Source of the DNA: Escherichia coli
GTDB taxonomy: Bacteria; Pseudomonadota; Gammaproteobacteria; Enterobacterales; Enterobacteriaceae
NCBI RefSeq assembly: GCF_003334305.1
Contig: NZ_QOWS01000033.1
Strand: one strand, 5' to 3'
Length of the DNA: 35,452 bases
Shown here piece by piece: positions 1,103 to 35,163 of this stretch (position 1 is its first letter; each line of letters opens with the position of its first letter). The notes under the pieces are model-generated. The model was not told the DNA's origin and did no database searches. It saw only the letters and a program-made list of their open reading frames with translations. Made by a program: the position numbers and the translations under genes.

Positions 1103-1292
1103 CCTCAATTAGTATTGGTTCGCCTTTCTCATTAATTGTTAGCTCCATGCCCTGAGGAATTTCTGTCATAGTAAAAAACCAGTTGTCCTCCGGTAATTCA
1201 ATAGCCCCGGTCACGTCATGAAGACCGGGGATTACTTCAGTCAAAGTAACTGGATTAAACAGGCGCACAATAAACCCTCCAGGAAAAAGCAT
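1071..1292 (-). CDS. Alternative (inverted-orientation) short tail fibre assembly protein
   Basis: Minus-strand ORF convergent with the plus-strand assembly gene, downstream of the minus-strand fibre cassette; start placed at an internal Met; arrangement mirrors Mu G-segment / e14 cassettes. Confidence 0.35.
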   Translation of the reverse strand: MLFPGGFIVRLFNPVTLTEVIPGLHDVTGAIELPEDNWFFTMTEIPQGMELTINEKGEPILIEVNQSQGIQAK

Positions 1293-1596
1293 TTGATGAT
1301 GGTCTGCCGTCGTACATCTGGCAGCGGGCATAAAAGCCGGTATTTGTTACCTGATCATCCACGATCATTGAAACATGAACATTATTAGGTGTGCTCTCGT
1401 AATCCGTTCTTATTCTTTCCGCGATACTGATAAAACGTGAAAGTTTAGGCAGTGCAATTGGGTAAACAACTTTAGCCAGTCCATTATCATTAGATCCACC
1501 GGTTCCAAATACTTCTATTGCACCGTCTGACCAGCGTATCCATGCACCATTGGCATTAGCTCCTCGCTGAATGACATATCTGGCTTCTCCCAAACC
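1255..1596 (-). CDS. Alternative tail-fibre C-terminal cassette, promoterless, expressed only after inversion
   Basis: Minus-strand frame encodes ...VGLGEARYVIQRGANANGAWIRW...; the VGLGE junction matches the GLGE junction at the window start; the Met codons at 1638 lie outside the inverted repeat and are probably incidental. Confidence 0.5.
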   Translation of the reverse strand, partial: GLGEARYVIQRGANANGAWIRWSDGAIEVFGTGGSNDNGLAKVVYPIALPKLSRFISIAERIRTDYESTPNNVHVSMIVDDQVTNTGFYARCQMYDGRPSSNAFSWRVYCAPV

Positions 1597-1610
1597 AACG
1601 TTTAAGAAAA
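1585..1610. repeat. Invertase crossover site (hix/gix-like), right end of invertible segment; partner half-site at 1-14
   Basis: 1585-1598 TTCTCCCAAACCAA is the reverse complement of window positions 1-14 (TTGGTTTAGGAGAA) with one mismatch; 1585-1610 has the form TTCTCCCAAACC-AA-CGTTTAAGAAAA, resembling the 12-2-12 Hin/Gin crossover sites. Confidence 0.55.
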
Positions 1611-1659
1611 TGCAGAGGTAACAGCTAACTGGCATCATCTCCGGTTTTTATTCAGGGGG

Positions 1660-2232
1660 ATGATCATGCTTATTGGCTATGTACGCGTGTCAACAAATGA
1701 CCAGAACACCGATTTGCAACGTAATGCACTGAACTGCGCGGGATGTGAGCAGATTTTTGAGGACAAAATCAGTGGCACTAAGTCCGACAGACCGGGGCTG
1801 AAAAAACTACTCAGGACACTATCGGCAGGAGACACGCTGGTTGTCTGGAAGCTGGACAGGTTGGGGCGCAGTATGCGGCATCTTGTTACGCTGATAGAAG
1901 AGTTGCGCCAGCGTGGTGTGAATTTCAGAAGCCTGACTGACAGTATTGATACCAGTACCCCAATGGGTCGTTTCTTTTTTCATGTCATGGGTGCCCTGGC
2001 TGAAATGGAACGCGAACTGATAGTTGAACGTACCAGGGCAGGGCTGGCTGCAGCTCGTGCCAAAGGCAGAGTAGGTGGACGCCGTCCTAAGTTGACCACC
2101 GAACAGTGGGCACAGATTGGGCGTTTACTCGAGGCCGGAGAATCAAGACAGCGTATTGCACTGATTTTTGATGTAGGCGTTTCTACCATTTATAGAAAAT
2201 TTCCGGCAAATAAGATCAATGAATCCCCCTGA
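1660..2232 (+). CDS. Serine DNA invertase (Pin/Gin/Hin/Cin family)
   Basis: N-terminus IGYVRVSTNDQ with the catalytic Ser context, a resolvase-type catalytic domain and a C-terminal HTH (GVSTIYRKF); lies directly beside the right crossover site. Confidence 0.85.
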   Translation: MIMLIGYVRVSTNDQNTDLQRNALNCAGCEQIFEDKISGTKSDRPGLKKLLRTLSAGDTLVVWKLDRLGRSMRHLVTLIEELRQRGVNFRSLTDSIDTSTPMGRFFFHVMGALAEMERELIVERTRAGLAAARAKGRVGGRRPKLTTEQWAQIGRLLEAGESRQRIALIFDVGVSTIYRKFPANKINESP

Positions 2233-2374: not shown

Positions 2375-3547
2375 ATGGCTCAGGATTACCACCACGGGGT
2401 GCGCGTTGTTGAAGTCAACGAAGGCACCCGATCTATTACCACGGTGAGCACCGCCATCGTGGGTATGGTCTGCACGGGCGATGATGCCGATGCAAAAATG
2501 TTTCCTCTTAATAAACCCGTGCTGATCACTGATGTGCTGACTGCCAGCGGTAAAGCGGGTGAGTCAGGTACTCTGGCCCGTTCGCTGGATGCCATCGCTG
2601 ACCAGGCAAAACCCGTGACCATTGTTGTGCGTGTGCCGCAGGGTGAAACGGAAGACGAAACCACGACCAATATCATCGGCGCAGTGACTGCTGAAGGTAA
2701 AAAAACAGGTATGAAAGCCCTGTTATCTGCCCAGTCACAGCTCGGCGTTAAACCGCGCATTCTCGGCGTGCCAGGCCACGACACCAAGGCGGTAGCTACT
2801 GAGTTGCTGAGCGTGGCGCAAAGCCTGCGTGGATTTGCTTACCTGTCAGCGTATGGCTGCAAGACAGTGCAGGAGGCGATCACTTACCGCGAAAACTTCA
2901 GCCAGCGCGAAGGGATGCTGATCTGGCCTGACTTTACTGGCTGGGACACGGTGCTGAATGCCGAAGCAACGGCATATGCCACCGCCCGTGCGCTTGGTCT
3001 GCGCGCCAAAATTGACGAGCAGACCGGATGGCACAAAAGCCTGTCCAACGTGGGCGTGAACGGTGTCACCGGAATTTCTGCAGATGTGTTCTGGGATCTG
3101 CAGGACCCGGCAACCGATGCAGGTCTGCTGAACCAGAACGACGTCACCACGCTTGTGCGTAAAGACGGTTTCCGCTTCTGGGGTTCCCGCTGCCTGAGTG
3201 ATGACCCGCTCTTTGCCTTCGAAAACTACACCCGCACGGCGCAGGTGCTGATGGACACGATGGCAGAAGCACACATGTGGGCGGTGGATAAACCGCTTAA
3301 CCCGTCGCTGGCCCGCGACATTATCGAAGGTATCCGCGCCAAAATGCGCAGCCTGGTCAGTCAGGGCTATCTCATTGGTGGTGATTGCTGGCTGGATGAG
3401 TCGGTGAACGACAAAGACACGCTGAAAGCCGGAAAACTCACCATCGACTACGACTACACGCCAGTGCCGCCACTTGAAAACCTGATGCTGCGTCAGCGCA
3501 TCACCGATCAGTACCTGGTGAATTTCGCCAGCCAGGTCAGCGCGTAA
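2375..3547 (+). CDS. Contractile tail sheath protein (P2 FI-like)
   Basis: 390-aa ORF first in the conserved FI-FII-E-T-U-D order; size and position fit the sheath. Confidence 0.8.
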
Positions 3548-3556
3548 GGGGACAAC

Positions 3557-4072
3557 ATGGCATTACCACGCAAATTAAAACACCTGAACCTGTTTAACGA
3601 CGGGAACAACTGGCAGGGGATCGTTGAGTCGCTGACGCTGCCGAAATTTACCCGCAAATATGAGAAGTATCGCGGCGGCGGAATGCCGGGTGCGGTGGAT
3701 GTGGATCTGGGGCTTGATGACAGTGCGCTGGACACAGAATTTTCCATTGGTGGTACTGAATTGCTGCTGTTTAAACAGATGGGTAAAGCCACGGTGGATG
3801 GCATCCAGCTGCGCTTTACCGGCTCTATTCAGCGTGACGATACCGGGGAAGTGCAGGCCGTGGAGCTTGTCGTGCGTGGACGTCACAAAGAAGTGGATTC
3901 CGGCGAGTGGAAGACGGGCGAAAGCAACACCACCAAAGTGACCAGTACCAACAGCTACGCGAAGCTGACCATCAATGGTGAGGTGCTCTATGAAGTGGAC
4001 CTTATCAACATGGTGGAAATTGTGGACGGTGTGGACCTGATGGAAGCGCACCGCAACGCCCTCGGCCTCTGA
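3557..4072 (+). CDS. Tail tube protein (P2 FII-like)
   Basis: 171-aa ORF directly after the sheath gene. Confidence 0.8.
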   Translation: MALPRKLKHLNLFNDGNNWQGIVESLTLPKFTRKYEKYRGGGMPGAVDVDLGLDDSALDTEFSIGGTELLLFKQMGKATVDGIQLRFTGSIQRDDTGEVQAVELVVRGRHKEVDSGEWKTGESNTTKVTSTNSYAKLTINGEVLYEVDLINMVEIVDGVDLMEAHRNALGL

Positions 4073-4126
4073 TATATCTGAACGGCGCGGGATACCGCGC
4101 CAGAACCCAATTGACAGGACAGCAAA

Positions 4127-4429
4127 ATGAGCGATAAGCAGACTGAAAAGACCATTCAACTGGATACCCCCATCAAGCGCGGTAAAACAGAAATCACCGA
4201 AATTGTGCTGCGTAAACCGCAGTCCGGTGCGCTACGCGGTACACGCCTGCAGGCCATTATGGATATGGATGTAAACGCGATGATGACCGTGATCCCCCGC
4301 ATCTCCAGTCCGGCACTGACTGCACAGGAAATTGCAGAGATGGACCCGGCAGATCTCACTGCCATGTCGGTTGAGGTTGTCACTTTTTTGTTGAAGAAGT
4401 CGGTGCTTGCCGGTTTACCGACAGCCTGA
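4127..4429 (+). CDS. Tail assembly chaperone E
   Basis: 100-aa ORF between tube and tape measure; contains the slippery run TTTTTTG near its 3' end. Confidence 0.75.
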   Translation: MSDKQTEKTIQLDTPIKRGKTEITEIVLRKPQSGALRGTRLQAIMDMDVNAMMTVIPRISSPALTAQEIAEMDPADLTAMSVEVVTFLLKKSVLAGLPTA

Positions 4430-4563
4430 CGGTTGACGATCTGGTGGCAGATATCGCCACCATTTTTCACTGGCCGCCATCCGTTACTGACGTTATGCCG
4501 CTGACCGAAGTGCTGGAATGGCGGTATAAAGCGATTCAGAGAAGCGGGGCCAACGATGAGTGA
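4127..4563 (+). CDS. Tail assembly chaperone E+E' made by a programmed -1 frameshift at TTTTTTG (4384-4390)
   Basis: The -1 frame after the slippery site stays open to a TGA at 4561-4563, encoding ...ADIATIFHWPPSVTDVMPLTEVLEWRYKAIQRSGANDE and overlapping the tape-measure ATG at 4556. Confidence 0.6.
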
Positions 4564-7500
4564 TAACAACCTGCGTCTGCAGGTCATTCTTAATGCGGTT
4601 GACAAGCTCACCCGCCCATTTCGATCTGCGCAGGCCAGTTCAAGAGAACTGGCTGCTGCTGTCAAAAAATCCCGCGATGCAATAAAGCAGCTTGATCAGG
4701 CCGGGAGCAGTCTGGACAGCTTCCGAAAGCTGCAGGCAGAAAATCAGAAATTAGGCGACAGGCTGAACTATGCCCGCCAGCGTGCAAATTTGCTCAGTCA
4801 GGAACTGGGAGCGATGGGGCCGCCTTCGCAACGTCAGGTTGTTGCTCTGGGCCGTCAACGGCTGGCTGTTCAGCGCCTGGAAGAACGCCAGAAAAAGCTG
4901 CAGCAGCAGACGGCGCTTGTGCGTGCTGAACTGTACCGGGCGGGAATTTCTGCGAAAGACGATGCGGGAGCAACTGCCCGTTTAGCCCGTGAAACATCAC
5001 GTTATAACCAGGAACTTTCGAAACAGGAGGCGCGGCTGAAGCGACTGGGGGAAGCTCAGCGCAGGATGAATGCAGCGCGTGCCAGTTATGCCCGTTCGCT
5101 GGAGGTGCGTGATCGTATTGCAGGTGCCGGAGCCACCACCACGGCTGCAGGGCTGGCAATGGGTGCGCCAGTGATGGCGGCAGTAAAAAGCTATACCAGC
5201 ATGGAAGATGCCATGAAAGGTGTGGCAAAGCAGGTCAATGGTCTGCGTGACGATAATGGCAACCGCACTGCACGTTTTTATGAAATGCAGGATGCCATCA
5301 AGGCTGCCAGCGAACAGTTGCCGATGGAAAACGGTGCGGTGGACTTCGCTGCACTGGTTGAAGGTGGTGCGCGCATGAACGTCGCAAACCCTGACGACAG
5401 CTGGGAAGATCAGAAACGTGACCTGCTGGCCTTCGCCAGTACGGCAGCAAAGGCGGCAACAGCCTTTGAGCTGCCAGCGGATGAACTGTCAGAAAGTCTG
5501 GGGAAAATCGCCCAGCTCTACAAAATCCCCACCCGCAATATTGAACAGCTCGGTGATGCGCTGAACTATCTGGATGATAACGCCATGTCGAAAGGGGCAG
5601 ACATCATTGATGTGATGCAACGTCTGGGCGGTGTGGCTGACCGTCTGGATTATCGTAAAGCGGCGGCGCTGGGTTCCACCTTCCTGACACTGGGCGCTGC
5701 GCCGGAGGTTGCAGCCAGTGCAGCAAACGCGATGGTGCGTGAATTGTCCATTGCCACCATGCAAAGCAAGAGTTTCTTTGAAGGGATGAATCTGCTGAAA
5801 CTCAATCCTGAAGTGATTGAAAAGCAGATGACGAAGGATGCGATGGGAACCATCCAGCGCGTGCTGGAGAAGGTAAACGCGCTGCCGCAGGACAAGCGCC
5901 TGTCTGCCATGACTATGTTGTTTGGTAAAGAGTTTGGCGATGACGCGGCGAAACTGGCAAACAACCTGCCGGAACTGCAGCGTCAGTTAAAACTGACAGC
6001 GGGCAATGATGCGCTTGGCTCCATGCAGAAAGAATCCGACATTAACAAGGATTCACTTTCTGCGCAGTGGTTGCTGGTCAAAACCGGAGCGCAGAACACC
6101 TTCAGCAGCCTGGGCGAAACGCTGCGCCAGCCGCTGATGGATATTCTGTACACGGTGAAAAGCGTCACGGGGGCGTTGCGTCGCTGGGTGGAAGCTAACC
6201 CGGAACTGACAGGCACACTGATGAAAGCATCGGCTGTTGTGGCTGCGGTTACCGTCGGCCTCGGCACCTTAGCGGTGGCGCTGGCTGCAGTGCTGGGGCC
6301 GCTGGCAGTGATCCGTCTGGGATTCTCTGTGTTGGGTATCAAAACGTTATCTTCCGTTACGGCAGCAGTAACTCGAACCAGCAGCGCGTTGTCCTGGCTG
6401 GCTGGCGCACCACTGGCACTGCTGCGACGCGGGCTTGCTTCATCGGGCAACGCCGCAGGTTTACTTACTGCGCCGTTGTCGTCTTTGCGCCGCACGGCAT
6501 CACTGACGGGAAATGTCCTGAAAACTGTAGCAGGTGCGCCGGTTGCACTTTTGCGGTCTGGATTATCCGGTTTACGTGCGGTTGCTGTGATGTTTATGAA
6601 TCCACTGGCAGCACTACGCGGCGGGCTGGCTGCCGCAGGCACGGTGCTGCGAGTACTGGCATCTGGTCCACTGGCGATGTTGCGCGTTGCCCTGTATGCC
6701 GTATCTGGTCTGTTAGGTGCTCTGCTCAGTCCGATAGGTCTTGTGGTTACTGCACTGGCGGGTGTGGCACTGGTTGTCTGGAAATACTGGCAACCCATCA
6801 CCGCATTTCTCGGTGGCGTGGTGGAAGGATTCAAAGCGGCGGCAGGTCCCATCAGTGCAGCGTTCGAACCGCTTAAGCCTGTGTTCCAGTGGATTGGTGA
6901 CAAAGTGCAGGCGCTGTGGGGCTGGTTTACTGATCTGCTGACGCCCGTTAAGTCGACTTCTGCCGAACTGCAGAGCGCAGCGGCAATGGGGCGACGATTC
7001 GGGGAGGCACTGGCGGAAGGGCTGAATATGGTCATGCATCCGCTGGACTCCCTGAAATCCGGCGTTTCCTGGTTGCTGGAGAAGCTCGGCATTATCAGTA
7101 AAGAGGCCGCAAAGGCAAAACTGCCGGAAAGCGTGACGCGTCAGCAACCTGCGACGGTGAATGCAGACGGTAAAGTGATGATGCCATCGGGTGGTTTTCC
7201 GTCATGGGGATATGGCTTTGCGGGGATGTATGACAGCGGCGGCTATATCCCGCGCGGGCAGTTTGGCATCGTCGGTGAAAACGGGCCGGAAATTGTTAAC
7301 GGCCCGGCAAATGTGACCAGCCGGAGAAATACAGCTGCACTGGCTGCCGTTGTTGCCGGAATGATGGGCGTTGCTGCCGCGCCTGCAGAGCTTCCACCGT
7401 TGCACCCTTTGGCACTTCCCGCGAAAGGCGGCGAAGCGATGGTGAGTCGTGCAGCCACTGTGCCGCCCGTTCAACGGATTGAGGCACCGATGCAGATCAT

Positions 7501-7633
7501 CATTCAGACGCAGCCAGGACAAAGTGCGCAGGATATTGCGCGGGAGGTGGCCCGCCAGCTTGATGAACGTGAACGCAGGCTGAAGGCAAAAGCCAGGAGT
7601 AACTACAGCGATCAGGGGGGATACGACGCATGA
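4556..7633 (+). CDS. Tail tape measure protein (P2 T-like)
   Basis: 1025-aa ORF with a coiled-coil-like N-terminal region, central hydrophobic Ala/Leu/Gly repeats and the canonical position after E/E'. Confidence 0.85.
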   Translation: MSDNNLRLQVILNAVDKLTRPFRSAQASSRELAAAVKKSRDAIKQLDQAGSSLDSFRKLQAENQKLGDRLNYARQRANLLSQELGAMGPPSQRQVVALGRQRLAVQRLEERQKKLQQQTALVRAELYRAGISAKDDAGATARLARETSRYNQELSKQEARLKRLGEAQRRMNAARASYARSLEVRDRIAGAGATTTAAGLAMGAPVMAAVKSYTSMEDAMKGVAKQVNGLRDDNGNRTARFYEMQDAIKAASEQLPMENGAVDFAALVEGGARMNVANPDDSWEDQKRDLLAFASTAAKAATAFELPADELSESLGKIAQLYKIPTRNIEQLGDALNYLDDNAMSKGADIIDVMQRLGGVADRLDYRKAAALGSTFLTLGAAPEVAASAANAMVRELSIATMQSKSFFEGMNLLKLNPEVIEKQMTKDAMGTIQRVLEKVNALPQDKRLSAMTMLFGKEFGDDAAKLANNLPELQRQLKLTAGNDALGSMQKESDINKDSLSAQWLLVKTGAQNTFSSLGETLRQPLMDILYTVKSVTGALRRWVEANPELTGTLMKASAVVAAVTVGLGTLAVALAAVLGPLAVIRLGFSVLGIKTLSSVTAAVTRTSSALSWLAGAPLALLRRGLASSGNAAGLLTAPLSSLRRTASLTGNVLKTVAGAPVALLRSGLSGLRAVAVMFMNPLAALRGGLAAAGTVLRVLASGPLAMLRVALYAVSGLLGALLSPIGLVVTALAGVALVVWKYWQPITAFLGGVVEGFKAAAGPISAAFEPLKPVFQWIGDKVQALWGWFTDLLTPVKSTSAELQSAAAMGRRFGEALAEGLNMVMHPLDSLKSGVSWLLEKLGIISKEAAKAKLPESVTRQQPATVNADGKVMMPSGGFPSWGYGFAGMYDSGGYIPRGQFGIVGENGPEIVNGPANVTSRRNTAALAAVVAGMMGVAAAPAELPPLHPLALPAKGGEAMVSRAATVPPVQRIEAPMQIIIQTQPGQSAQDIAREVARQLDERERRLKAKARSNYSDQGGYDA

Positions 7634-8115
7634 TGATGGTGCTGGGATTGTACGTGTTTATGCTGCGCACCGTGCCGTATCAGGAGCTGCAGTATCAACG
7701 CAGCTGGCGACATGCGGCAAACAGCCGGGTAAACCGACGTCCGTCCACGCAGTTTCTGGGACCGGACAACGACATGCTGACGCTTTCCGGTGTTCTTATG
7801 CCGGAGATAACAGGTGGCAGGCTGTCGTTGCTGGCACTGGAGCAGATGGCAGAACAGGGGAAAGCATGGCCCCTGATTGAAGGCAGCGGCACGATTTATG
7901 GCATGTATGTGATTGAGGGACTGAATCAGACTAAAACGGAGTTTTTCCGCGACGGTATGCCGCGCCGGATTGAGTTCACCCTGTCGCTCAAACGGGTGGA
8001 TGAATCCCTGTCCGATATGTTCGGTGATCTCAGTGCGCAACTGAATAATCTGCAGGAAACGGCAACGTCTGCCTTAAGCGATATCAGTAAAACGGTGGGA
8101 GGGCTGCTGTCGTGA
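7630..8115 (+). CDS. Tail protein U-like
   Basis: 161-aa ORF whose start overlaps the tape-measure stop; position matches P2 gene U. Confidence 0.75.
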   Translation: MMMVLGLYVFMLRTVPYQELQYQRSWRHAANSRVNRRPSTQFLGPDNDMLTLSGVLMPEITGGRLSLLALEQMAEQGKAWPLIEGSGTIYGMYVIEGLNQTKTEFFRDGMPRRIEFTLSLKRVDESLSDMFGDLSAQLNNLQETATSALSDISKTVGGLLS

Positions 8116-9212
8116 ATTTCAGCTCTGAACTGCTTAACAAAAGCAACAAAACTCCGGCATTCAGCATCAGTATTGAGGGCAGGGATATCACTACTGTGCT
8201 GGATAACCGCCTGATGAGTCTGACTCTGACGGACAATCGGGGCTTTGAAGCAGACCAGCTTGATCTGGAGCTGGACGATGCCGACGGGAAAATCGTGCTG
8301 CCGCGCCGTGGTGCGGTCATTACGCTGGCGCTGGGCTGGAAGGGGCAGCCGCTTTTCCCGAAAGGGGCATTCACGGTGGACGAGATTGAACACACTGGCG
8401 CACCGGACCGCCTGACTATCCGGGCGCGAAGTGCTGATTTTCGGGAAACGCTGAATACCCGCCGTGAAAAATCGTGGCACAAGACCACCATTGGGGAAGT
8501 GGTGAAGGAGATAGCCGCGCGGCACAAGCTGAAGATGGTACTGGGTAAAGACCTGTCGGATAAGCTCGTGGAGCATATAGACCAGACTAATGAGAGTGAC
8601 GGTAGTTTTCTGATGCGGCTGGCGCGCCAGTACGGTGCTATTGCGTCGGTGAAAAATGGCAATCTGTTATTCATCCGGCAGGGACAGGGCAAAAGTGCCA
8701 GCGGTAAACCACTGCCGGTGATCACTATCACACGTAAGGACGGCGACAGTCACCGCTTTACCCTGGCAGATCGCGGAGCCTATACGGGCATAATTGCCAG
8801 CTGGTTGCATACCCGCGAACCCGCGAAGAAAGAAAGCACCACGGTGAAGCGTAAGCGCAGGACTAAGAAGCAGAAGAAAGAGCCGGAAGCGAAGCAGGGC
8901 GATTACCTGGTGGGTACGGATGAAAACGTGCTGGTACTTAATCGCACTTATGCCAACCGGAGCAACGCTGAACGGGCAGCGAAAATGCAGTGGGAACGCC
9001 TGCAACGCGGCGTTGCGTCATTCTCGCTACAACTGGCGGAAGGGCGGGCAGATCTCTACACGGAAATGCCAGTGAAAGTCAGTGGCTTTAAACAGCCGAT
9101 AGATGATGCGGAATGGACCATTACGACTCTGACACATACCGTCAGCCCGGATAATGGTTTTACGACCAGTCTTGAGCTTGAAGTGAAGGTTGATGATCTC
9201 GAAATGGAATGA
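8112..9212 (+). CDS. Tail protein D-like (late tail gene)
   Basis: 366-aa ORF with a GTG start overlapping the U stop; position matches P2 gene D. Confidence 0.75.
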   Translation: MNFSSELLNKSNKTPAFSISIEGRDITTVLDNRLMSLTLTDNRGFEADQLDLELDDADGKIVLPRRGAVITLALGWKGQPLFPKGAFTVDEIEHTGAPDRLTIRARSADFRETLNTRREKSWHKTTIGEVVKEIAARHKLKMVLGKDLSDKLVEHIDQTNESDGSFLMRLARQYGAIASVKNGNLLFIRQGQGKSASGKPLPVITITRKDGDSHRFTLADRGAYTGIIASWLHTREPAKKESTTVKRKRRTKKQKKEPEAKQGDYLVGTDENVLVLNRTYANRSNAERAAKMQWERLQRGVASFSLQLAEGRADLYTEMPVKVSGFKQPIDDAEWTITTLTHTVSPDNGFTTSLELEVKVDDLEME

Positions 9213-9302
9213 TTCTTCACAATGGAGAACTTTTAAGTTTGAAAAATGGAATAATGCGATATCATTATTGTGAATTTAGCAAAAATGGGGAGAACTCGAA
9301 AA

Positions 9303-9521
9303 ATGATGATTTGCCCACTGTGTGGAAGTGCCGCCCATACTCGCAGCAGTTTTCAGGTATCTTCATTGACCAAAGAGCGTTACAACCAGTGCCAGAACAT
9401 TAACTGCAGCCATACTTTTGTTACCCATGAAACTTTTGTTCGTTCGATTGCAACGCCAAAAGAGTCAAATCCGGTTCAGCCGCATCCTCATAAATTTAAA
9501 CAGGTGGGTTTGCCGATTTAA
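9303..9521 (+). CDS. ogr: Ogr/Delta-type zinc-finger late transcription activator
   Basis: CPLCGSAAHTRSS...YNQCQNINCSHTF is a C4 zinc-finger pattern like P2 Ogr; start placed at the Met preceding CPLC, with a GGGAGA Shine-Dalgarno upstream. Confidence 0.75.
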   Translation: MMICPLCGSAAHTRSSFQVSSLTKERYNQCQNINCSHTFVTHETFVRSIATPKESNPVQPHPHKFKQVGLPI

Positions 9522-9585
9522 ATGGCGACATAACTACATGATTTAAAACTATACTTTTCTATAAGTTGAGGTTAAATTAACAATG

Positions 9586-9762
9586 CCTGACGTTAGCGGG
9601 GATTTATCCCCACTCCGTAGATATGTAGTTTGTCGCTTTGCGACTGCGGACCGATTACCTGATTGCCATGTAATCGGACGCCGACTTGTTAAGCTTTCTG
9701 GGCTAACTGGTTGTTATTTTTTATTTAGTTAGGGCCATGCGCTTGCGCTAAGAGACGTCAGG
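9586..9762 (+). ncRNA. Candidate structured non-coding RNA upstream of the reverse transcriptase (retron msr/msd-like or DRT-type ncRNA)
   Basis: Long-range inverted repeat CCTGACGTTAGCG (9586-9598) with CGCTA-AGAG-ACGTCAGG (9746-9762) enclosing hairpins at 9598-9611, 9632-9644 and 9651-9677; no convincing ORF inside. Confidence 0.4.
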
Positions 9763-9782
9763 TATCTATGGAGGAACAAGTT

Positions 9783-9956
9783 ATGGATACAAACGAACTT
9801 GGCTTAGTTAAGGCGCGTGTTGAACTGATCACCGCTATGCTCAAATGCGCAACCGCGTTTGTTGGCTTAGTTGGTGCGGTTTACGCCGTTCTTAACATGG
9901 CCTTCAACTACAACAATTTAACTCATGACAATAGAAGTTCAAAGGTGGGAAGATAA
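9783..9956 (+). CDS. Small hypothetical protein with one hydrophobic helix (possible small effector, or frameshifted RT N-terminus)
   Basis: Only open frame across 9768-9956; GGAGGA Shine-Dalgarno about 7 nt before the ATG at 9783; hydrophobic stretch AFVGLVGAVYAVLNMAF; overlaps the RT start by about 30 nt in another frame. Confidence 0.3.
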   Translation: MDTNELGLVKARVELITAMLKCATAFVGLVGAVYAVLNMAFNYNNLTHDNRSSKVGR

Positions 9957-10698
9957 ATTTGAGATTAAGCCCGGGGTTTGGGTTTATGTCCCAAGCGTTG
10001 AGGCACGTAAAGTCGGAGGGAAGATACTTCAGGCTGTCAGAAACAAGTGGATTCCGCCACTCTATTTTTACCATCTAAGAACTGGTGGGCATCTTAAAGC
10101 TGCCAGATTACACTTAAAAAGTGATTTTTTTGCCGTTGTTGATATTAAACAATTTTTTCAGTCAACGAGCCGTAGTCGTATCACCCGTGATCTAAAGAGC
10201 TACTTCACCTATTCTCAAGCGCGGGAAATCTCAACATTTTCAACTGTAAGAAACTTGTCCCATAGTCCACATAAGCATGTCCTCCCTTTTGGTTTTGTTC
10301 AATCTCCAATACTTGCAACCCTCTGCTTAGATAAAAGTTATTTTGGTAGCTTACTACGCCGATTGAACAAACATCATGATCTCAAGCTAAGTGTGTTTAT
10401 GGATGATGTGATCATCTCGTCAAACGATTTGGCCCAATTACAAGCGGCTTACGACGAAGCACTAGTGGCAATGCGTAAATCTGGTTATCAAGCCAACATG
10501 AGTAAAACTCAGGCACCATCGTCAAAGATTAGCGTGTTTAATTTAACTTTGAGTAAGGGAGTTATGAAAGTCACATCTCAGAAAATGAGTGACTTCCTGA
10601 TTGATTTCTATTCAAGCAATTATGAGCCGCACAGAATAGGGGTCAAAAACTACGTCGAAGCTGTTAATCCAGGGCAAGCGAAACTCTTTAAGTTGTAA
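9925..10698 (+). CDS. Compact reverse transcriptase (retron/Abi/DRT-like RT domain)
   Basis: RT motifs readable in the translation: fingers FEIKPGVWVYVPS, motif A VVDIKQFFQS, motif B LPFGFVQSPILATLCL, catalytic YxDD box FMDD; AT-rich with rare codons (AGA, ATA, CTA). Confidence 0.75.
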   Translation: MTIEVQRWEDKFEIKPGVWVYVPSVEARKVGGKILQAVRNKWIPPLYFYHLRTGGHLKAARLHLKSDFFAVVDIKQFFQSTSRSRITRDLKSYFTYSQAREISTFSTVRNLSHSPHKHVLPFGFVQSPILATLCLDKSYFGSLLRRLNKHHDLKLSVFMDDVIISSNDLAQLQAAYDEALVAMRKSGYQANMSKTQAPSSKISVFNLTLSKGVMKVTSQKMSDFLIDFYSSNYEPHRIGVKNYVEAVNPGQAKLFKL

Positions 10699-10806
10699 TT
10701 GCGATCGCATGTAGTAGCAACTGGGCTTGACTGAATGTCTGCCGCCATTTTGCCGCCACTACTAAAGAAAAAAGGGCTACGCTTTCACGTAACCCCTTGA
10801 TTTATT

Positions 10807-11169
10807 TGGTGGAGCTGGCGGGAGTTGAACCCGCGTCCGAAATTCCTACATCCTCGGTACTACATGCTTAGTCAGTCTTTACATTCGCTTGCCAGCTGCG
10901 GACGGACACGCCACTAACAAACTAGCCTGATTAAGTTTTAACGCTTCAACCCCAGGCAGGGCTTCCACGCGATCTCTTTTGGGTTTGACCTCTCTTGATC
11001 CCCGTCCTAAGAGCGGAGGCTAGGGAGAGAGGGCTCTAAGCAGGTTATTAAGCTGCTAAAGCGTAGTTTTCGTCGTTTGCGACTATTTTTTGCGGCTTTT
11101 TACGAGGCCAACCGCCCCTCGGCATGCACCTTGGGTTTCGCAAATCCCGTCGAATCCAGAATCAGCCCC
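10807..11169 (-). ncRNA. ssrA: tmRNA (SsrA)
   Basis: Reverse complement matches E. coli tmRNA from GGGGCTGATTCTGG (5' end at 11169) to GCTCCACCA (3' end at 10807), including the tag-coding region. Confidence 0.95.
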
Positions 11170-11383
11170 AATGTGTAAAGGTAAGTATACCAGATTTATG
11201 AGCGCCATGACCAGCCTCAATGGCGTTATCGTTAAAGATTTAGCACCCATGTAGCCTGATTTTTATTCGATTAAGCAATGGGATGGCAACATTTGTGTCG
11301 GATGTGATAGCCAATAAGATGTTCATTCGCGCCGCCGGAGAGGGAGGCGCGGTGAGGAACTGGTCAATAATTGGAGTGCAGGT

Positions 11384-29039: not shown

Positions 29040-29075
29040 ATAAAAAAGGCCCCCCGATTTGGGAGGCCTTATTGT
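29040..29075 (-). terminator. pheA attenuator terminator hairpin
   Basis: On the minus strand GGCCTCCC-AAATC-GGGGGGCC followed by a T-run, between pheL and pheA. Confidence 0.6.
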
Positions 29076-29116
29076 TCGTCTTCGCATTCTGTTTCACACG
29101 ACGAAACGCCTCCCAT

Positions 29117-29164
29117 TCAGGGGAAGGTAAAAAAGAATGCGAAGAAAAACGGTGTGTGTTTCAT
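29117..29164 (-). CDS. pheL: pheA leader peptide, 15 aa, Phe-rich ([15 protein letters not shown])
   Basis: Direct translation of the reverse complement gives seven Phe codons in 15. Confidence 0.85.
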   Translation of the reverse strand: [15 protein letters not shown]

Positions 29165-29267
29165 GTTTGTTTCCTTAAGTGACTTTAGTACAGTACCCGT
29201 ACTGTTTTCACGCTGTCAACAAAAAACGCGCCCGAAGGCGCGTTGGCGATACACTCAATATAAAGGA

Positions 29268-32460: not shown

Positions 32461-32522
32461 CCTAAAGAATCAAGACGATCCGGTACGCGTGATTTTCTTT
32501 TCACATTAATCTGGTCAATAAC

Positions 32523-32550
32523 CTTGAATAATTGAGGGATGACCTCATTT
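32523..32550 (+). promoter_or_regulatory. Sigma-32 heat-shock promoter of clpB
   Basis: CTTGAA (32523-32528), 14-nt spacer, CCTCATTT (32543-32550), resembling the sigma-32 -35/-10 consensus. Confidence 0.5.
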
Positions 32551-32589
32551 AATCTCCAGTAGCAACTTTGATCCGTTATGGGAGGAGTT

Positions 32590-35163
32590 ATGCGTCTGGA
32601 TCGTCTTACTAATAAATTCCAGCTTGCTCTTGCCGATGCCCAATCACTTGCACTCGGGCACGACAACCAATTTATCGAACCACTTCATTTAATGAGCGCC
32701 CTGCTGAATCAGGAAGGGGGTTCGGTTAGTCCTTTATTAACATCCGCTGGCATCAATGCTGGCCAGTTGCGCACAGATATCAATCAGGCATTAAATCGTT
32801 TACCGCAGGTTGAAGGTACTGGTGGTGATGTCCAGCCATCACAGGATCTGGTGCGCGTTCTTAATCTTTGCGACAAGCTGGCGCAAAAACGTGGTGATAA
32901 CTTTATCTCGTCAGAACTGTTCGTTCTGGCGGCACTTGAGTCTCGCGGCACGCTGGCCGACATCCTGAAAGCAGCAGGGGCGACCACCGCCAACATTACT
33001 CAAGCGATTGAACAAATGCGTGGAGGTGAAAGCGTGAACGATCAAGGTGCTGAAGACCAACGTCAGGCTTTGAAAAAATATACCATCGACCTTACCGAAC
33101 GAGCCGAACAGGGCAAACTCGATCCGGTGATTGGTCGTGATGAAGAAATTCGCCGTACCATTCAGGTGCTGCAACGTCGTACTAAAAATAACCCGGTACT
33201 GATTGGTGAACCCGGCGTCGGTAAAACTGCCATCGTTGAAGGTCTGGCGCAGCGTATTATCAACGGCGAAGTGCCGGAAGGATTGAAAGGCCGCCGCGTA
33301 CTGGCGCTGGATATGGGCGCGCTGGTGGCTGGGGCGAAATATCGCGGTGAGTTTGAAGAACGTTTAAAAGGCGTGCTTAACGATCTTGCCAAACAGGAAG
33401 GCAACGTCATCCTGTTTATCGACGAATTACATACCATGGTCGGCGCGGGTAAAGCCGATGGCGCAATGGACGCCGGAAACATGCTGAAACCGGCGCTGGC
33501 GCGTGGTGAATTGCACTGCGTAGGTGCCACGACGCTTGACGAATATCGCCAGTACATTGAAAAAGATGCTGCGCTGGAACGTCGTTTCCAGAAAGTGTTT
33601 GTTGCCGAGCCTTCCGTTGAAGATACCATTGCGATTCTGCGTGGCCTGAAAGAACGTTACGAATTGCACCACCATGTGCAAATTACTGACCCGGCAATTG
33701 TTGCAGCGGCGACGTTGTCTCATCGCTACATTGCTGACCGTCAGCTGCCGGATAAAGCCATCGACCTGATCGATGAAGCAGCATCCAGCATTCGTATGCA
33801 GATTGACTCAAAACCAGAAGAACTCGACCGACTCGATCGTCGTATCATCCAGCTCAAACTGGAACAACAGGCGTTAATGAAAGAGTCTGATGAAGCCAGT
33901 AAAAAACGCCTGGATATGCTCAACGAAGAACTGAGCGACAAAGAACGTCAGTACTCCGAGTTAGAAGAAGAGTGGAAAGCAGAGAAGGCATCGCTTTCTG
34001 GTACGCAGACCATTAAAGCGGAACTGGAACAGGCGAAAATCGCTATTGAACAGGCTCGCCGTGTGGGGGACCTGGCGCGGATGTCTGAACTGCAATACGG
34101 CAAAATCCCGGAACTGGAAAAGCAACTGGAAGCCGCAACGCAGCTCGAAGGCAAAACTATGCGTCTGTTGCGTAATAAAGTGACCGATGCCGAAATTGCT
34201 GAAGTGCTGGCGCGTTGGACGGGGATTCCGGTTTCTCGCATGATGGAAAGCGAGCGCGAAAAACTGCTGCGTATGGAACAAGAACTGCACCATCGCGTCA
34301 TTGGTCAGAACGAAGCGGTTGATGCGGTATCTAACGCTATTCGCCGTAGCCGTGCGGGGTTGGCGGATCCAAATCGCCCGATTGGTTCATTCCTGTTCCT
34401 CGGCCCAACGGGTGTGGGGAAAACTGAGCTTTGTAAGGCGCTGGCGAACTTTATGTTTGATAGCGACGAGGCGATGGTCCGTATCGATATGTCCGAGTTT
34501 ATGGAGAAACACTCGGTGTCTCGTCTGGTTGGTGCGCCTCCGGGATATGTCGGTTATGAAGAAGGTGGCTACCTGACCGAAGCTGTGCGTCGTCGTCCGT
34601 ATTCCGTCATCCTGCTGGATGAAGTGGAAAAAGCGCATCCGGATGTCTTCAACATTCTGTTGCAGGTACTGGATGATGGTCGTCTGACTGACGGGCAGGG
34701 GAGAACGGTCGACTTCCGTAATACGGTTGTCATTATGACCTCTAACCTCGGTTCCGATTTGATTCAGGAACGCTTCGGTGAACTGGATTATGCGCACATG
34801 AAAGAGCTGGTGCTCGGTGTGGTAAGCCATAACTTCCGTCCGGAATTCATTAACCGTATTGATGAAGTGGTGGTCTTCCATCCGCTGGGTGAACAGCACA
34901 TTGCCTCGATTGCGCAGATTCAGTTGAAACGTCTGTACAAACGTCTGGAAGAACGTGGTTATGAAATCCACATTTCTGACGAGGCGCTGAAACTGCTGAG
35001 CGAGAACGGTTACGATCCAGTCTATGGTGCACGTCCTTTGAAACGTGCTATCCAGCAGCAGATCGAAAACCCGCTGGCACAGCAAATACTGTCTGGTGAA
35101 TTGGTTCCGGGTAAAGTGATTCGCCTGGAAGTTAATGAAGACCGGATTGTCGCCGTCCAGTAA
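32590..35163 (+). CDS. clpB: Disaggregase chaperone ClpB (Hsp100)
   Basis: 857 aa from [10 protein letters not shown]; two AAA+ modules with Walker A motifs ([16 protein letters not shown]) and a middle coiled coil. Confidence 0.95.

What the first reader, a model, noticed from the sequence alone, without database searches (positions are those of the whole stretch)
4384..4563. Conserved -1 programmed frameshift in the tail chaperone genes E/E'
The heptamer TTTTTTG lies at 4384-4390 near the end of E. The -1 frame from that point stays open for about 58 codons and terminates at a TGA (4561-4563) that overlaps the tape-measure ATG. This is the expected arrangement for P2 E/E' and the analogous lambda G/GT, and it supports a functional tail-assembly module.
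Basis: partly seen in the sequence, partly recalled or inferred. Interest (0 to 1): 0.3.

Follow-up and report, generated by a model that had tools for sequence, protein, structure and literature searches.

The report
P2-type tail chaperone E/E' frameshift
This is the well-known ribosomal "slip-back-one-base" site that P2-like phages use to make a short and a long version of their tail-assembly chaperone; it is real and conserved here, and it is ordinary rather than new.

Summary
TTTTTTG lies at 4384-4390 in the register T_TTT_TTG of gene E (4127-4429). This is 12 codons before E's stop. The -1 frame opens 3 codons upstream of the heptamer and runs 57 codons past it to TGA 4561-4563. That stop lies 8 nt inside the tape-measure gene T (ATG 4556).

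The heptamer by itself is not rare (12 in the window, 11 expected). The case rests on position and homology:
- The predicted 145-aa fusion matches Pfam Phage_TAC_7 (E part) and Phage_P2_GpE (-1 part), both at about 4e-18.
- It aligns without gaps to the P2 E+E' fusion deduced here, straight through the slip site (49% identity, E = 3e-51).
- All 14 Peduoviridae loci examined have E and E' in a -1 relation. All carry an in-register X_XXY_YYZ heptamer at the homologous position. Eleven have T6G or T7; three have CCCTTTC, AAATTTT or GGGAAAG.
- The 18 conserved -1-frame codons after the heptamer contain no start codon. This argues against the stand-alone 39-aa "GpE family" CDS that RefSeq annotates.

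No conserved stimulatory RNA structure was found. The same DNA occurs in 998 of 5,426 complete E. coli genomes.

Verdict: an already known mechanism, correctly read. Low interest.

The parts
4127..4429 (+). Gene E: zero-frame tail assembly chaperone, 100 aa, AGGA ribosome-binding site 7 nt upstream of the ATG
   Evidence: ORF list and translation. Pfam PF10109 Phage_TAC_7 on residues 9-88, 3.8e-18. PHROG 103 'tail protein', 4.4e-44. RefSeq names it 'phage tail assembly protein'.
4384..4390 (+). Slippery heptamer T_TTT_TTG: P-site TTT, A-site TTG in the zero frame
   Evidence: Sequence and register. Homologous in-register heptamer in all 14 related loci. 76 of 77 near-identical IMG/VR loci keep TTTTTTG and one has TTTTTTA.
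4390..4563 (+). E' : the -1 frame extension, 57 sense codons plus TGA, reached only by the slip
   Evidence: Translation. Pfam PF06528 Phage_P2_GpE, 4.2e-18. PHROG 1756 and 6416. Substitutions against RE2010 and ST11-VIM1phi8.4 fall mainly on position 3 of the -1 frame: 11/18 and 13/19, binomial p = 0.014 and 0.002.
4127..4563 (+). E+E' fusion product, 145 aa: 4127-4390 joined to 4390-4563, with base 4390 read twice
   Evidence: Ungapped BLASTP to the P2 E+E' fusion deduced, 49% identity, E = 3e-51, continuous through the junction. Multiple alignment of 15 fusions.
4444..4563 (+). The 39-aa 'GpE family phage tail protein' CDS as annotated in RefSeq, starting at GTG 4444. Judged an annotation artefact of the unannotated frameshift.
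   Evidence: Annotations. There is no ATG, GTG or TTG in the -1 frame between 4375 and 4443 and no Shine-Dalgarno sequence before 4444. The equivalent codon is GCC, GTT or ATT in RS-AB1, Kp4845-1 and MhaA1.
4556..7633 (+). Gene T: tail tape measure protein, 1025 aa. Its first 8 nt overlap the end of E'.
   Evidence: PHROG 28, 4.5e-198. TIGR01760, 1.3e-92.
3557..4072 (+). Gene FII: major tail tube protein, immediately upstream of E
   Evidence: TIGR01611 tail_tube equivalog, 167.8 bits against a cut-off of 102.75.
4373..4376 (+). Shine-Dalgarno-like GAGG 7 nt upstream of the heptamer. A candidate stimulator, unproven.
   Evidence: (G/A)AGG at the same spacing in 9 of 15 sequences (the window plus 14 loci). 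It is always encoded by Glu/Lys-Val codons, so protein constraint can explain it.
4399..4421 (+). Weak hairpin GTCGGT/ACCGAC starting 8 nt after the heptamer. A candidate stimulator, unproven.
   Evidence: Fold z = -0.95, not significant. No consensus structure across 11 loci. Weak in 5 enterobacterial loci, -4 kcal/mol.

Best explanation
This is the programmed -1 ribosomal frameshift of the P2-type tail assembly chaperone genes E and E'.

Most ribosomes translate E (4127-4429) to its own stop and make the 100-aa gpE. A minority pause with tRNA-Phe on TTT (4385-4387) in the P site and tRNA-Leu on TTG (4388-4390) in the A site. Both tRNAs slip back one base onto TTT TTT (4384-4389). Translation then resumes at GTT (4390) in the -1 frame and continues for 57 codons to TGA 4561-4563. 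The result is the 145-aa E+E' protein.

By analogy with P2 and lambda G/GT, the shared E part binds the tape measure protein encoded by the next gene (T). The -1 encoded E' part engages the tail tube. A small, fixed fraction of the fusion therefore nucleates tube polymerisation around the tape measure, and neither protein ends up in the virion.

Shown here: the anatomy, the homology of both parts, and the conservation of the signal. Inferred: that slipping happens in this element, its frequency, and the protein interactions.

U_UUU_UUG is not among the high-efficiency motifs in E. coli, and no conserved stimulator was found. A low frameshift rate is therefore expected, as this kind of chaperone pair requires.
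For: - Register T_TTT_TTG in the zero frame of E. It is the only in-register heptamer in the 52-nt two-frame overlap.
- Pfam Phage_TAC_7 (residues 9-88) plus Phage_P2_GpE (107-143) on the fusion. PHROG 1756 covers residues 85-145, right up to the slip site.
- Ungapped 49% identity to the P2 E+E' fusion deduced here, across the junction, E = 3e-51.
- The 18 -1-frame codons between the heptamer and the first possible start codon (GTG 4444) are 10/18 identical to P2.
- All 14 related loci, drawn from at least 11 Peduoviridae genera, show a -1 relation. Ten have T_TTT_TTG, Smp131 has T7, and three have CCCTTTC, AAATTTT or GGGAAAG at the homologous spot.
- The zero-frame tail after the heptamer varies from 5 to 20 codons and is not conserved. 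The -1 extension is 52-71 codons and is conserved.
- tblastn of the fusion finds 419 phage records. 386 cover at least 80% of the query; of the 50 rows listed, the 47 that cover both parts do so as two pieces and the last three match E only.
- Differences from RE2010 and ST11-VIM1phi8.4 concentrate on codon position 3 of the -1 frame downstream of E's stop.
- Gene order is tube-E-E'-tape measure, with an 8-nt E'/T overlap as in P2.
- Literature: P2 E' lacks a ribosome-binding site and is expressed as E+E' by a -1 shift at T6G (Christie 2002, as summarised in PMC3931495). [quoted passage not shown] Heptamers ending in UUG are poorer shifters in E. coli than those ending in UUY (PMC4066793).
Against: - Nothing here measures frameshifting. 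No protein or ribosome-profiling data exist for this element.
- The heptamer alone is no rarer than chance.
- No significant or conserved downstream structure was found. The upstream GAGG can be explained by amino-acid conservation. The signal therefore lacks a demonstrable stimulator.
- The primary paper on P2 could not be read. Its content is cited second-hand.
Confidence: 0.93

Rival explanations
1. E' is an independent small gene. A 39-aa protein is initiated at GTG 4444 in the -1 frame, as annotated by PGAP/RefSeq ('GpE family phage tail protein'), and no frameshift is needed.
For: RefSeq and several GenBank records annotate exactly this CDS. The Pfam model PF06528 is only 37 positions long and matches residues 107-143, which is from that GTG onward.
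Against: - There is no Shine-Dalgarno sequence in the 15 nt before 4444 (gacggttgacgatct).
- The -1 frame is conserved at the protein level for the 18 codons upstream of that GTG, starting at the heptamer. PHROG 1756 extends to the slip site.
- The codon at this position is not a start codon in RS-AB1 (GCC), Kp4845-1 (GTT) or MhaA1 (ATT).
- In P2, E' is reported to lack a ribosome-binding site and to be made as E+E'.
Confidence: 0.03
2. The frame change is made at the RNA level. RNA polymerase stutters on the T6 run and adds one extra U, so a fraction of mRNAs encode E+E' in a single frame (transcriptional slippage).
For: The site is a homopolymer run, T6 here and T7 in Smp131. One inserted U would give the same -1 frame product (sequence logic).
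Against: - By established knowledge, productive transcriptional slippage in bacteria needs runs of about 8-9 or more A or T. Six is short.
- In three related loci the homologous site is a non-homopolymeric tandem-slippage heptamer (CCCTTTC, AAATTTT, GGGAAAG). These cannot support polymerase stuttering but fit two-tRNA re-pairing.
- The run is always held in the X_XXY_YYZ codon register, which matters only to the ribosome.
Confidence: 0.03
3. Coincidence or relic. The heptamer and the open -1 frame are not used, and only gpE is functional.
For: TTTTTTG occurs at chance frequency in the window. U_UUU_UUG is not a high-efficiency motif in E. coli.
Against: - The -1 ORF is conserved as protein across Enterobacteriaceae, Burkholderia, Ralstonia, Pseudomonas, Stenotrophomonas, Mannheimia and Acidovorax phages.
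- The substitution pattern is codon-position biased.
- The heptamer is kept in 76 of 77 close relatives. The one change is to another slippery heptamer, TTTTTTA.
Confidence: 0.01

Closest known systems
Bacteriophage P2 genes E and E+E' (FETUD tail operon; Christie, Temple, Bartlett, Goodwin 2002, J Bacteriol 184:6522)
   Same: - Same slippery heptamer T_TTT_TTG in the same codon register.
- Same -1 direction and same 57-codon extension.
- Same 8-nt overlap of E' with the start of T (ATGAGTGA here, ATGAGTAA in P2).
- Same place between tube gene FII and tape measure T.
- 49% identity over 139 aa with no gaps.
   Different: - The zero-frame tail after the slip is 12 codons here against 6 in P2. 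E is 100 aa against 91 aa.
- The tape measure is longer here: 1025 aa, against 815 codons for the annotated P2 T CDS.
- The phage belongs to a different genus. The nearest record is Wadgaonvirus 500465-1 at 99.7% identity.
Escherichia phage 500465-1 (NC_049342) / Klebsiella phage KP12, and the equivalent prophage in E. coli
   Same: 99.7-100% identical DNA over FII-E-E'-T. The E region is present in 998 of 5,426 complete E. coli genomes.
   Different: Nothing of substance. In those records the frameshift is not annotated, and E' is entered as a separate 39-aa CDS.
Phage lambda G / GT tail assembly chaperones, and the conserved tail-gene frameshift of Xu, Hendrix and Duda 2004
   Same: - Two overlapping ORFs just upstream of the tape measure gene, joined by a low-frequency -1 slip near the end of the first.
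- The fusion is longer than the zero-frame product.
- The proposed role is to couple the tape measure to tube polymerisation.
   Different: - Different slippery sequence: G_GGA_AAG in lambda, from my own knowledge.
- No reported sequence similarity.
- Lambda has a non-contractile tail, whereas this is a contractile-tail phage with a sheath gene.
E. coli dnaX and IS911/IS3 -1 frameshift signals
   Same: A tandem-slippage heptamer. The upstream Shine-Dalgarno-like element and downstream hairpin found here are possible counterparts of their stimulators.
   Different: In dnaX and the IS elements the stimulators are strong and proven. Here neither is statistically supported or conserved across the family.

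Membership tests
P2-type E / E+E' tail assembly chaperone pair (Peduoviridae) | The zero-frame product belongs to the gpE tail-assembly-chaperone family | tested here: met
   Pfam PF10109 Phage_TAC_7, 3.8e-18, residues 9-88. PHROG 103, 4.4e-44.
P2-type E / E+E' tail assembly chaperone pair (Peduoviridae) | The -1 frame extension is homologous to P2 E' | tested here: met
   Pfam PF06528 Phage_P2_GpE, 4.2e-18. PHROG 1756, 4.7e-23. 35/60 identical to the P2 -1 frame.
P2-type E / E+E' tail assembly chaperone pair (Peduoviridae) | A slippery X_XXY_YYZ heptamer (T6G in P2) in the zero-frame register, inside the stretch where both frames are open | tested here: met
   T_TTT_TTG at 4384-4390, with both frames open over 4375-4426.
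P2-type E / E+E' tail assembly chaperone pair (Peduoviridae) | E' has no ribosome-binding site or start of its own that could account for the conserved -1 coding sequence | tested here: met
   No ATG, GTG or TTG in the -1 frame from 4375 to 4443, and no Shine-Dalgarno sequence before GTG 4444. -1 frame conservation starts at the heptamer.
P2-type E / E+E' tail assembly chaperone pair (Peduoviridae) | Located between the tail tube gene (FII) and the tape measure gene (T), with E' overlapping the start of T | tested here: met
   TIGR01611 tube protein at 3557-4072 and TIGR01760 tape measure at 4556-7633. 8-nt overlap.
P2-type E / E+E' tail assembly chaperone pair (Peduoviridae) | The fusion protein is actually made by frameshifting and is required for tail assembly | not testable with these tools
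   Needs protein analysis or genetics. Shown for P2 only (Christie 2002, via PMC3931495).
Lambda G/GT-type conserved tail-gene frameshift (Xu, Hendrix, Duda 2004) | [quoted passage not shown] | tested here: met
Lambda G/GT-type conserved tail-gene frameshift (Xu, Hendrix, Duda 2004) | Low, fixed ratio of fusion to short product (about 1:30 in lambda) | not testable with these tools
   The only support is indirect: U_UUU_UUG is outside the high-efficiency motif set in E. coli.
Transcriptional slippage site | A long homopolymeric A or T run (about 8-9 nt or more), with no dependence on codon register | tested here: not met
   The run is 6 T. The register is fixed. The homologous sites in three loci are not homopolymers.
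dnaX/IS-type stimulated -1 frameshift signal | A conserved stimulator: an internal Shine-Dalgarno sequence upstream and/or a stable hairpin or pseudoknot 5-9 nt downstream | tested here: inconclusive
   GAGG 7 nt upstream occurs in 9 of 15 sequences but is codon-explained. The hairpin 8 nt downstream has z = -0.95. No consensus structure was found.

The most novel reading that the evidence does not exclude
In this Wadgaonvirus/Felsduovirus-type lineage, the intrinsically weak U_UUU_UUG site may be tuned by lineage-specific stimulators. The candidates are the internal Shine-Dalgarno-like GAGG 7 nt upstream (4373-4376) and the 6-bp hairpin 8 nt downstream (4399-4421). If so, the E:E+E' ratio differs from that of P2 and is matched to the longer, 1025-aa tape measure.
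Probability: 0.15. Interest if true: 0.2.

Novelty: already known. Interest (0 to 1): 0.08.

Why it matters
It matters mainly for annotation. The frameshift shows that the tail-assembly module of this prophage is intact and P2-like. It also shows that the 39-aa 'GpE family phage tail protein' CDS found in the RefSeq annotations inspected here is better described as the C-terminal part of a 145-aa E+E' frameshift product; the same DNA is in about a thousand complete E. coli genomes, and all ten listed hits carry that CDS. It adds nothing new to the biology of frameshifting or tail assembly.

Tried and rejected
- **Primary paper.** Reading Christie et al. 2002 by DOI and by PMC id failed because it is not held. 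I used the summary in PMC3931495 instead.
- **Solved structures.** The fusion has no sequence relative in the PDB at E <= 1. No structure prediction was run because it would not bear on the question.
- **NCBIfam.** No model hits E or E+E'.
- **Downstream stimulator.** 60-nt folds in 15 sequences (the window plus 14 loci) give z-scores from -2.05 to +1.18 with no trend. RNAalifold on 11 loci predicts no pairs. On 5 enterobacterial loci it gives only -4 kcal/mol. Rejected as a conserved feature.
- **Terminator-like hairpin at 4442-4462 inside E'**. 78.6% of cells pair across 14 loci, against 76.1% in shuffles (110 of 500 shuffles are as high). Rejected as a by-product of the palindromic Ala-Asp-Ile-Ala codons.
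- **IMG/VR scan with the E protein.** It returned 80 loci that are all 100% identical in E. These were useless for diversity. The third-position bias in their E region is circular, so only the E' part and the heptamer counts were used.
- **Possible T-U fusion at G_GGG_GGA 7615-7621**. Rejected: in P2 the same place is an intergenic GGAGG Shine-Dalgarno sequence for U.

Full report
**Observation.** The window reads ...GTC ACT TTT TTG TTG AAG... in the frame of the ORF 4127-4429. TTTTTTG therefore occupies 4384-4390 in the register T_TTT_TTG, 12 codons before that ORF's TGA. The -1 frame has a stop at 4372-4374. It is then open from 4375 to 4560 and ends at TGA 4561-4563. This gives 57 sense codons after the slip, or 59 counted from 4384. 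The next gene starts at ATG 4556, so the sequence is ATGAGTGA. The stop lies 3 nt after the ATG and E' overlaps the next ORF by 8 nt. It does not sit on the ATG itself, which is the only imprecision in the finding.

**Is it more than chance?** The heptamer alone is not. There are 12 copies in the window against 11.0 +/- 3.0 in dinucleotide shuffles. There are 10 in-register X_XXY_YYZ heptamers in 3,025 codons of the 10 ORFs scanned (eight prophage tail genes, the invertase and the RT), against about 12 expected. The context is what is special:
- It is the only in-register heptamer within the 52-nt stretch where both frames are open.
- Of the 10 in-register heptamers, only two give a -1 product longer than the zero-frame product. 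The other is a G-run that turns out to be the ribosome-binding site of gene U.

**What the two frames encode.** The zero-frame product (100 aa) matches PHROG 103 (4.4e-44). The predicted 145-aa fusion matches Pfam Phage_TAC_7 over residues 9-88 (3.8e-18) and Phage_P2_GpE over residues 107-143 (4.2e-18). PHROG 1756 covers residues 85-145, right up to the slip site. The neighbours are:
- tail sheath, 2375-3547;
- tail tube, 3557-4072 (TIGR01611, above its curated cut-off);
- tape measure, 4556-7633 (TIGR01760);
- homologues of P2 U and D.

RefSeq gives the same gene order for an identical E. coli prophage.

**Comparison with relatives.** The FII-E-T DNA is 99.7% identical to Escherichia phage 500465-1 (Wadgaonvirus) and Klebsiella phage KP12. 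The E/E' stretch is present in 998 of 5,426 complete E. coli genomes. tblastn of the fusion finds 419 phage records. 386 cover at least 80% of the query. Of the 50 listed rows, the 47 that cover both parts do so as two pieces, meaning two frames; the last three match the E part only.

I fetched 14 loci from at least 11 Peduoviridae genera. For each I located the best E-like and E'-like open frames. The results were:
- In all 14, E' is in the -1 frame relative to E.
- Ten carry T_TTT_TTG in register at the homologous position. These include P2, KS5, SW9, phiE202, RS-AB1, a Pseudomonas phage and Acica.
- Smp131 has T7.
- The three most divergent have other tandem-slippage heptamers: CCCTTTC in Kp4845-1, AAATTTT in 520873 and GGGAAAG in phiMhaA1.
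- The zero-frame tail after the heptamer varies from 5 to 20 codons and is not conserved.
- The -1 extension is 52-71 codons and carries the conserved motif (D/E)D..AD(I/V)A..F.W.P.....L.E...WR..A..RSG.

The window fusion aligns to the P2 fusion (deduced from the P2 record) without a gap, straight through the junction: 68/139 identities, E = 3e-51. From the heptamer onward the -1 frames are 35/60 identical. The other two frames give 20/59 and 23/59 and contain stops. Against RE2010 and ST11-VIM1phi8.4, nucleotide differences downstream of E's stop fall on position 3 of the -1 frame in 11/18 and 13/19 cases (binomial p = 0.014 and 0.002). Among 77 near-identical IMG/VR loci, 76 keep TTTTTTG and one has TTTTTTA, which is also slippery and is synonymous in E.

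**Mechanism.** The best-supported explanation is tandem -1 slippage. tRNA-Phe on UUU (P site) and tRNA-Leu on UUG (A site) re-pair on UUU UUU, after which GUU (4390) is read. Three points come from the literature:
- For P2, E' lacks a ribosome-binding site, reaches back into E in the -1 frame, and is expressed as E+E' through a T6G slippery sequence. The arrangement is conserved among P2-like phages and is analogous to lambda G/GT (Christie et al. 2002, as summarised in PMC3931495). The primary paper is not in the library.
- In lambda, G and the G part of GT bind the tape measure, the T part binds the tube subunit, and a 30:1 ratio is crucial (PMC5009743).
[quoted passage not shown] Heterogeneous codons such as UUG are poorer, and U_UUU_UUG is not in the high-efficiency set (PMC4066793). 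This fits a need for only a little fusion protein.

The homology and anatomy are shown here. The slipping itself, its rate and the protein contacts are inferred.

**Stimulators.** I looked for stimulators and found nothing convincing.
- A hairpin (GTCGGT 4399-4404 pairing with ACCGAC 4416-4421) begins 8 nt after the heptamer. Its fold z-score is -0.95. Across the 15 sequences z ranges from -2.05 to +1.18.
- RNAalifold predicts no pairs across 11 loci. It gives a weak -4 kcal/mol consensus in 5 enterobacterial loci.
- A Shine-Dalgarno-like (G/A)AGG lies 7 nt upstream in 9 of 15 sequences. It is always a Glu/Lys-Val codon pair, so protein constraint suffices to explain it.

**Rivals.**
1. *Independent initiation at GTG 4444*, as annotated by RefSeq and several GenBank records. 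Several points count against it.
   - There is no Shine-Dalgarno sequence before 4444.
   - There is no start codon anywhere in the -1 frame from 4375 to 4443.
   - The 18 codons upstream of that GTG are conserved at the protein level, 10/18 identical to P2.
   - The equivalent codon is not a start codon in RS-AB1, Kp4845-1 or MhaA1.
2. *Transcriptional slippage on T6.* The run is short, it is fixed in codon register, and it is replaced by non-homopolymeric heptamers in three relatives.
3. *Coincidence.* This is excluded by the conservation data.

**Comparison with the known, and verdict.** Every sequence-level defining feature of the P2 E/E+E' system was tested and met. Only protein-level proof is untestable here. 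This is a correct recognition of an already known recoding signal in a very common E. coli prophage. Its practical value is for annotation: the 39-aa 'GpE family' CDS should be a ribosomal-slippage join giving a 145-aa E+E'.

**Context.** The window holds only the right-hand part of the prophage, from the tail fibre to an ogr-like gene. This abuts ssrA (tmRNA, 10807-11169, minus strand) and is followed by host chromosome.

Noticed in passing
window 9925-10698 (+): A 257-aa reverse-transcriptase-domain ORF lies between the ogr-like gene and ssrA, at the prophage end. It hits Pfam RVT_1 at 2.4e-21, and its best PADLOC hit is retron RT_VI at 6.6e-18. This cargo is rare. At least 80% of 9200-10810 is found in only 21 of 5,426 complete E. 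coli genomes, against 998 for the E/E' region. No msr/msd-type RNA was found by Rfam at E <= 1 in 9200-11300. It is a possible retron-like anti-phage cargo with an unidentified non-coding RNA and effector.
   Followed up: partly
window 10807-11169 (-): The tmRNA gene ssrA (tag ANDENYALAA) has its 3' end facing the prophage. The P2-like element is therefore apparently integrated at ssrA. The att repeats were not mapped.
   Followed up: partly
window 1255-1638 (-) and 1660-2232 (+): A tail-fibre C-terminal fragment lies in inverted orientation next to a serine DNA invertase (PHROG 125, 7.8e-102), just after the tail-fibre and fibre-assembly genes (36-1102). This looks like an invertible host-range segment of the Mu G / P1 C type. 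It sits where P2 itself has the Z/fun locus; that position is from my own memory of P2 and was not checked here.
   Followed up: no
window 4442-4462 (+): An intrinsic-terminator-like hairpin (TGGTGGC-AGATATC-GCCACCA followed by TTTTT) lies inside E', 51 nt after the heptamer. Similar pairing exists in many relatives: 78.6% of cells pair. This is not above column shuffles (76.1%; 110 of 500 shuffles as high). It is probably a by-product of the palindromic Ala-Asp-Ile-Ala codons.
   Followed up: yes
window 7615-7621 (+): G_GGG_GGA is in register three codons before the stop of T, and its -1 frame is the frame of gene U (7630-8115). A slip there would fuse T to U. In P2 the same position is an intergenic GGAGG ahead of U, and RE2010 has a G7 run. 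The G-run is therefore most simply U's ribosome-binding site.
   Followed up: partly
window 4084-4101 (+): A GC-rich 7-bp hairpin (GGCGCGG-GATA-CCGCGCC) without a T-tail lies in the 54-nt spacer between the tube gene FII and E. It was seen by eye and not analysed.
   Followed up: no
window 3557-4072 (+); L001 501-1016: PHROG phrog_55 labels the tail tube protein 'head closure', and RefSeq NC_049342 repeats this label. NCBIfam TIGR01611 (167.8 bits, cut-off 102.75) and other records call it the major tail tube protein. This is an annotation error that propagates.
   Followed up: yes
window 4444-4563 (+); L095 6845-6964: RefSeq/PGAP and several GenBank records enter E' as a stand-alone 39-aa 'GpE family phage tail protein' with no ribosomal-slippage join. 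The frameshift product is therefore missing from the annotation in the records inspected, and the ten listed hits show the same CDS; the DNA itself is in about 1,000 complete E. coli genomes.
   Followed up: yes
one of IMG/VR loci L015-L094 (position equivalent to window 4390): One of 77 near-identical relatives has TTTTTTA instead of TTTTTTG. The change is synonymous in E (Leu), gives Val to Ile in E', and the heptamer is still slippery.
   Followed up: no
window 29040-29165 (-) and 32471-32609 (+): Host-chromosome RNA elements lie beyond the prophage: the Phe leader (RF01859, 132 bits) and the RyfD sRNA (RF02768, 125 bits). They are ordinary.
   Followed up: no
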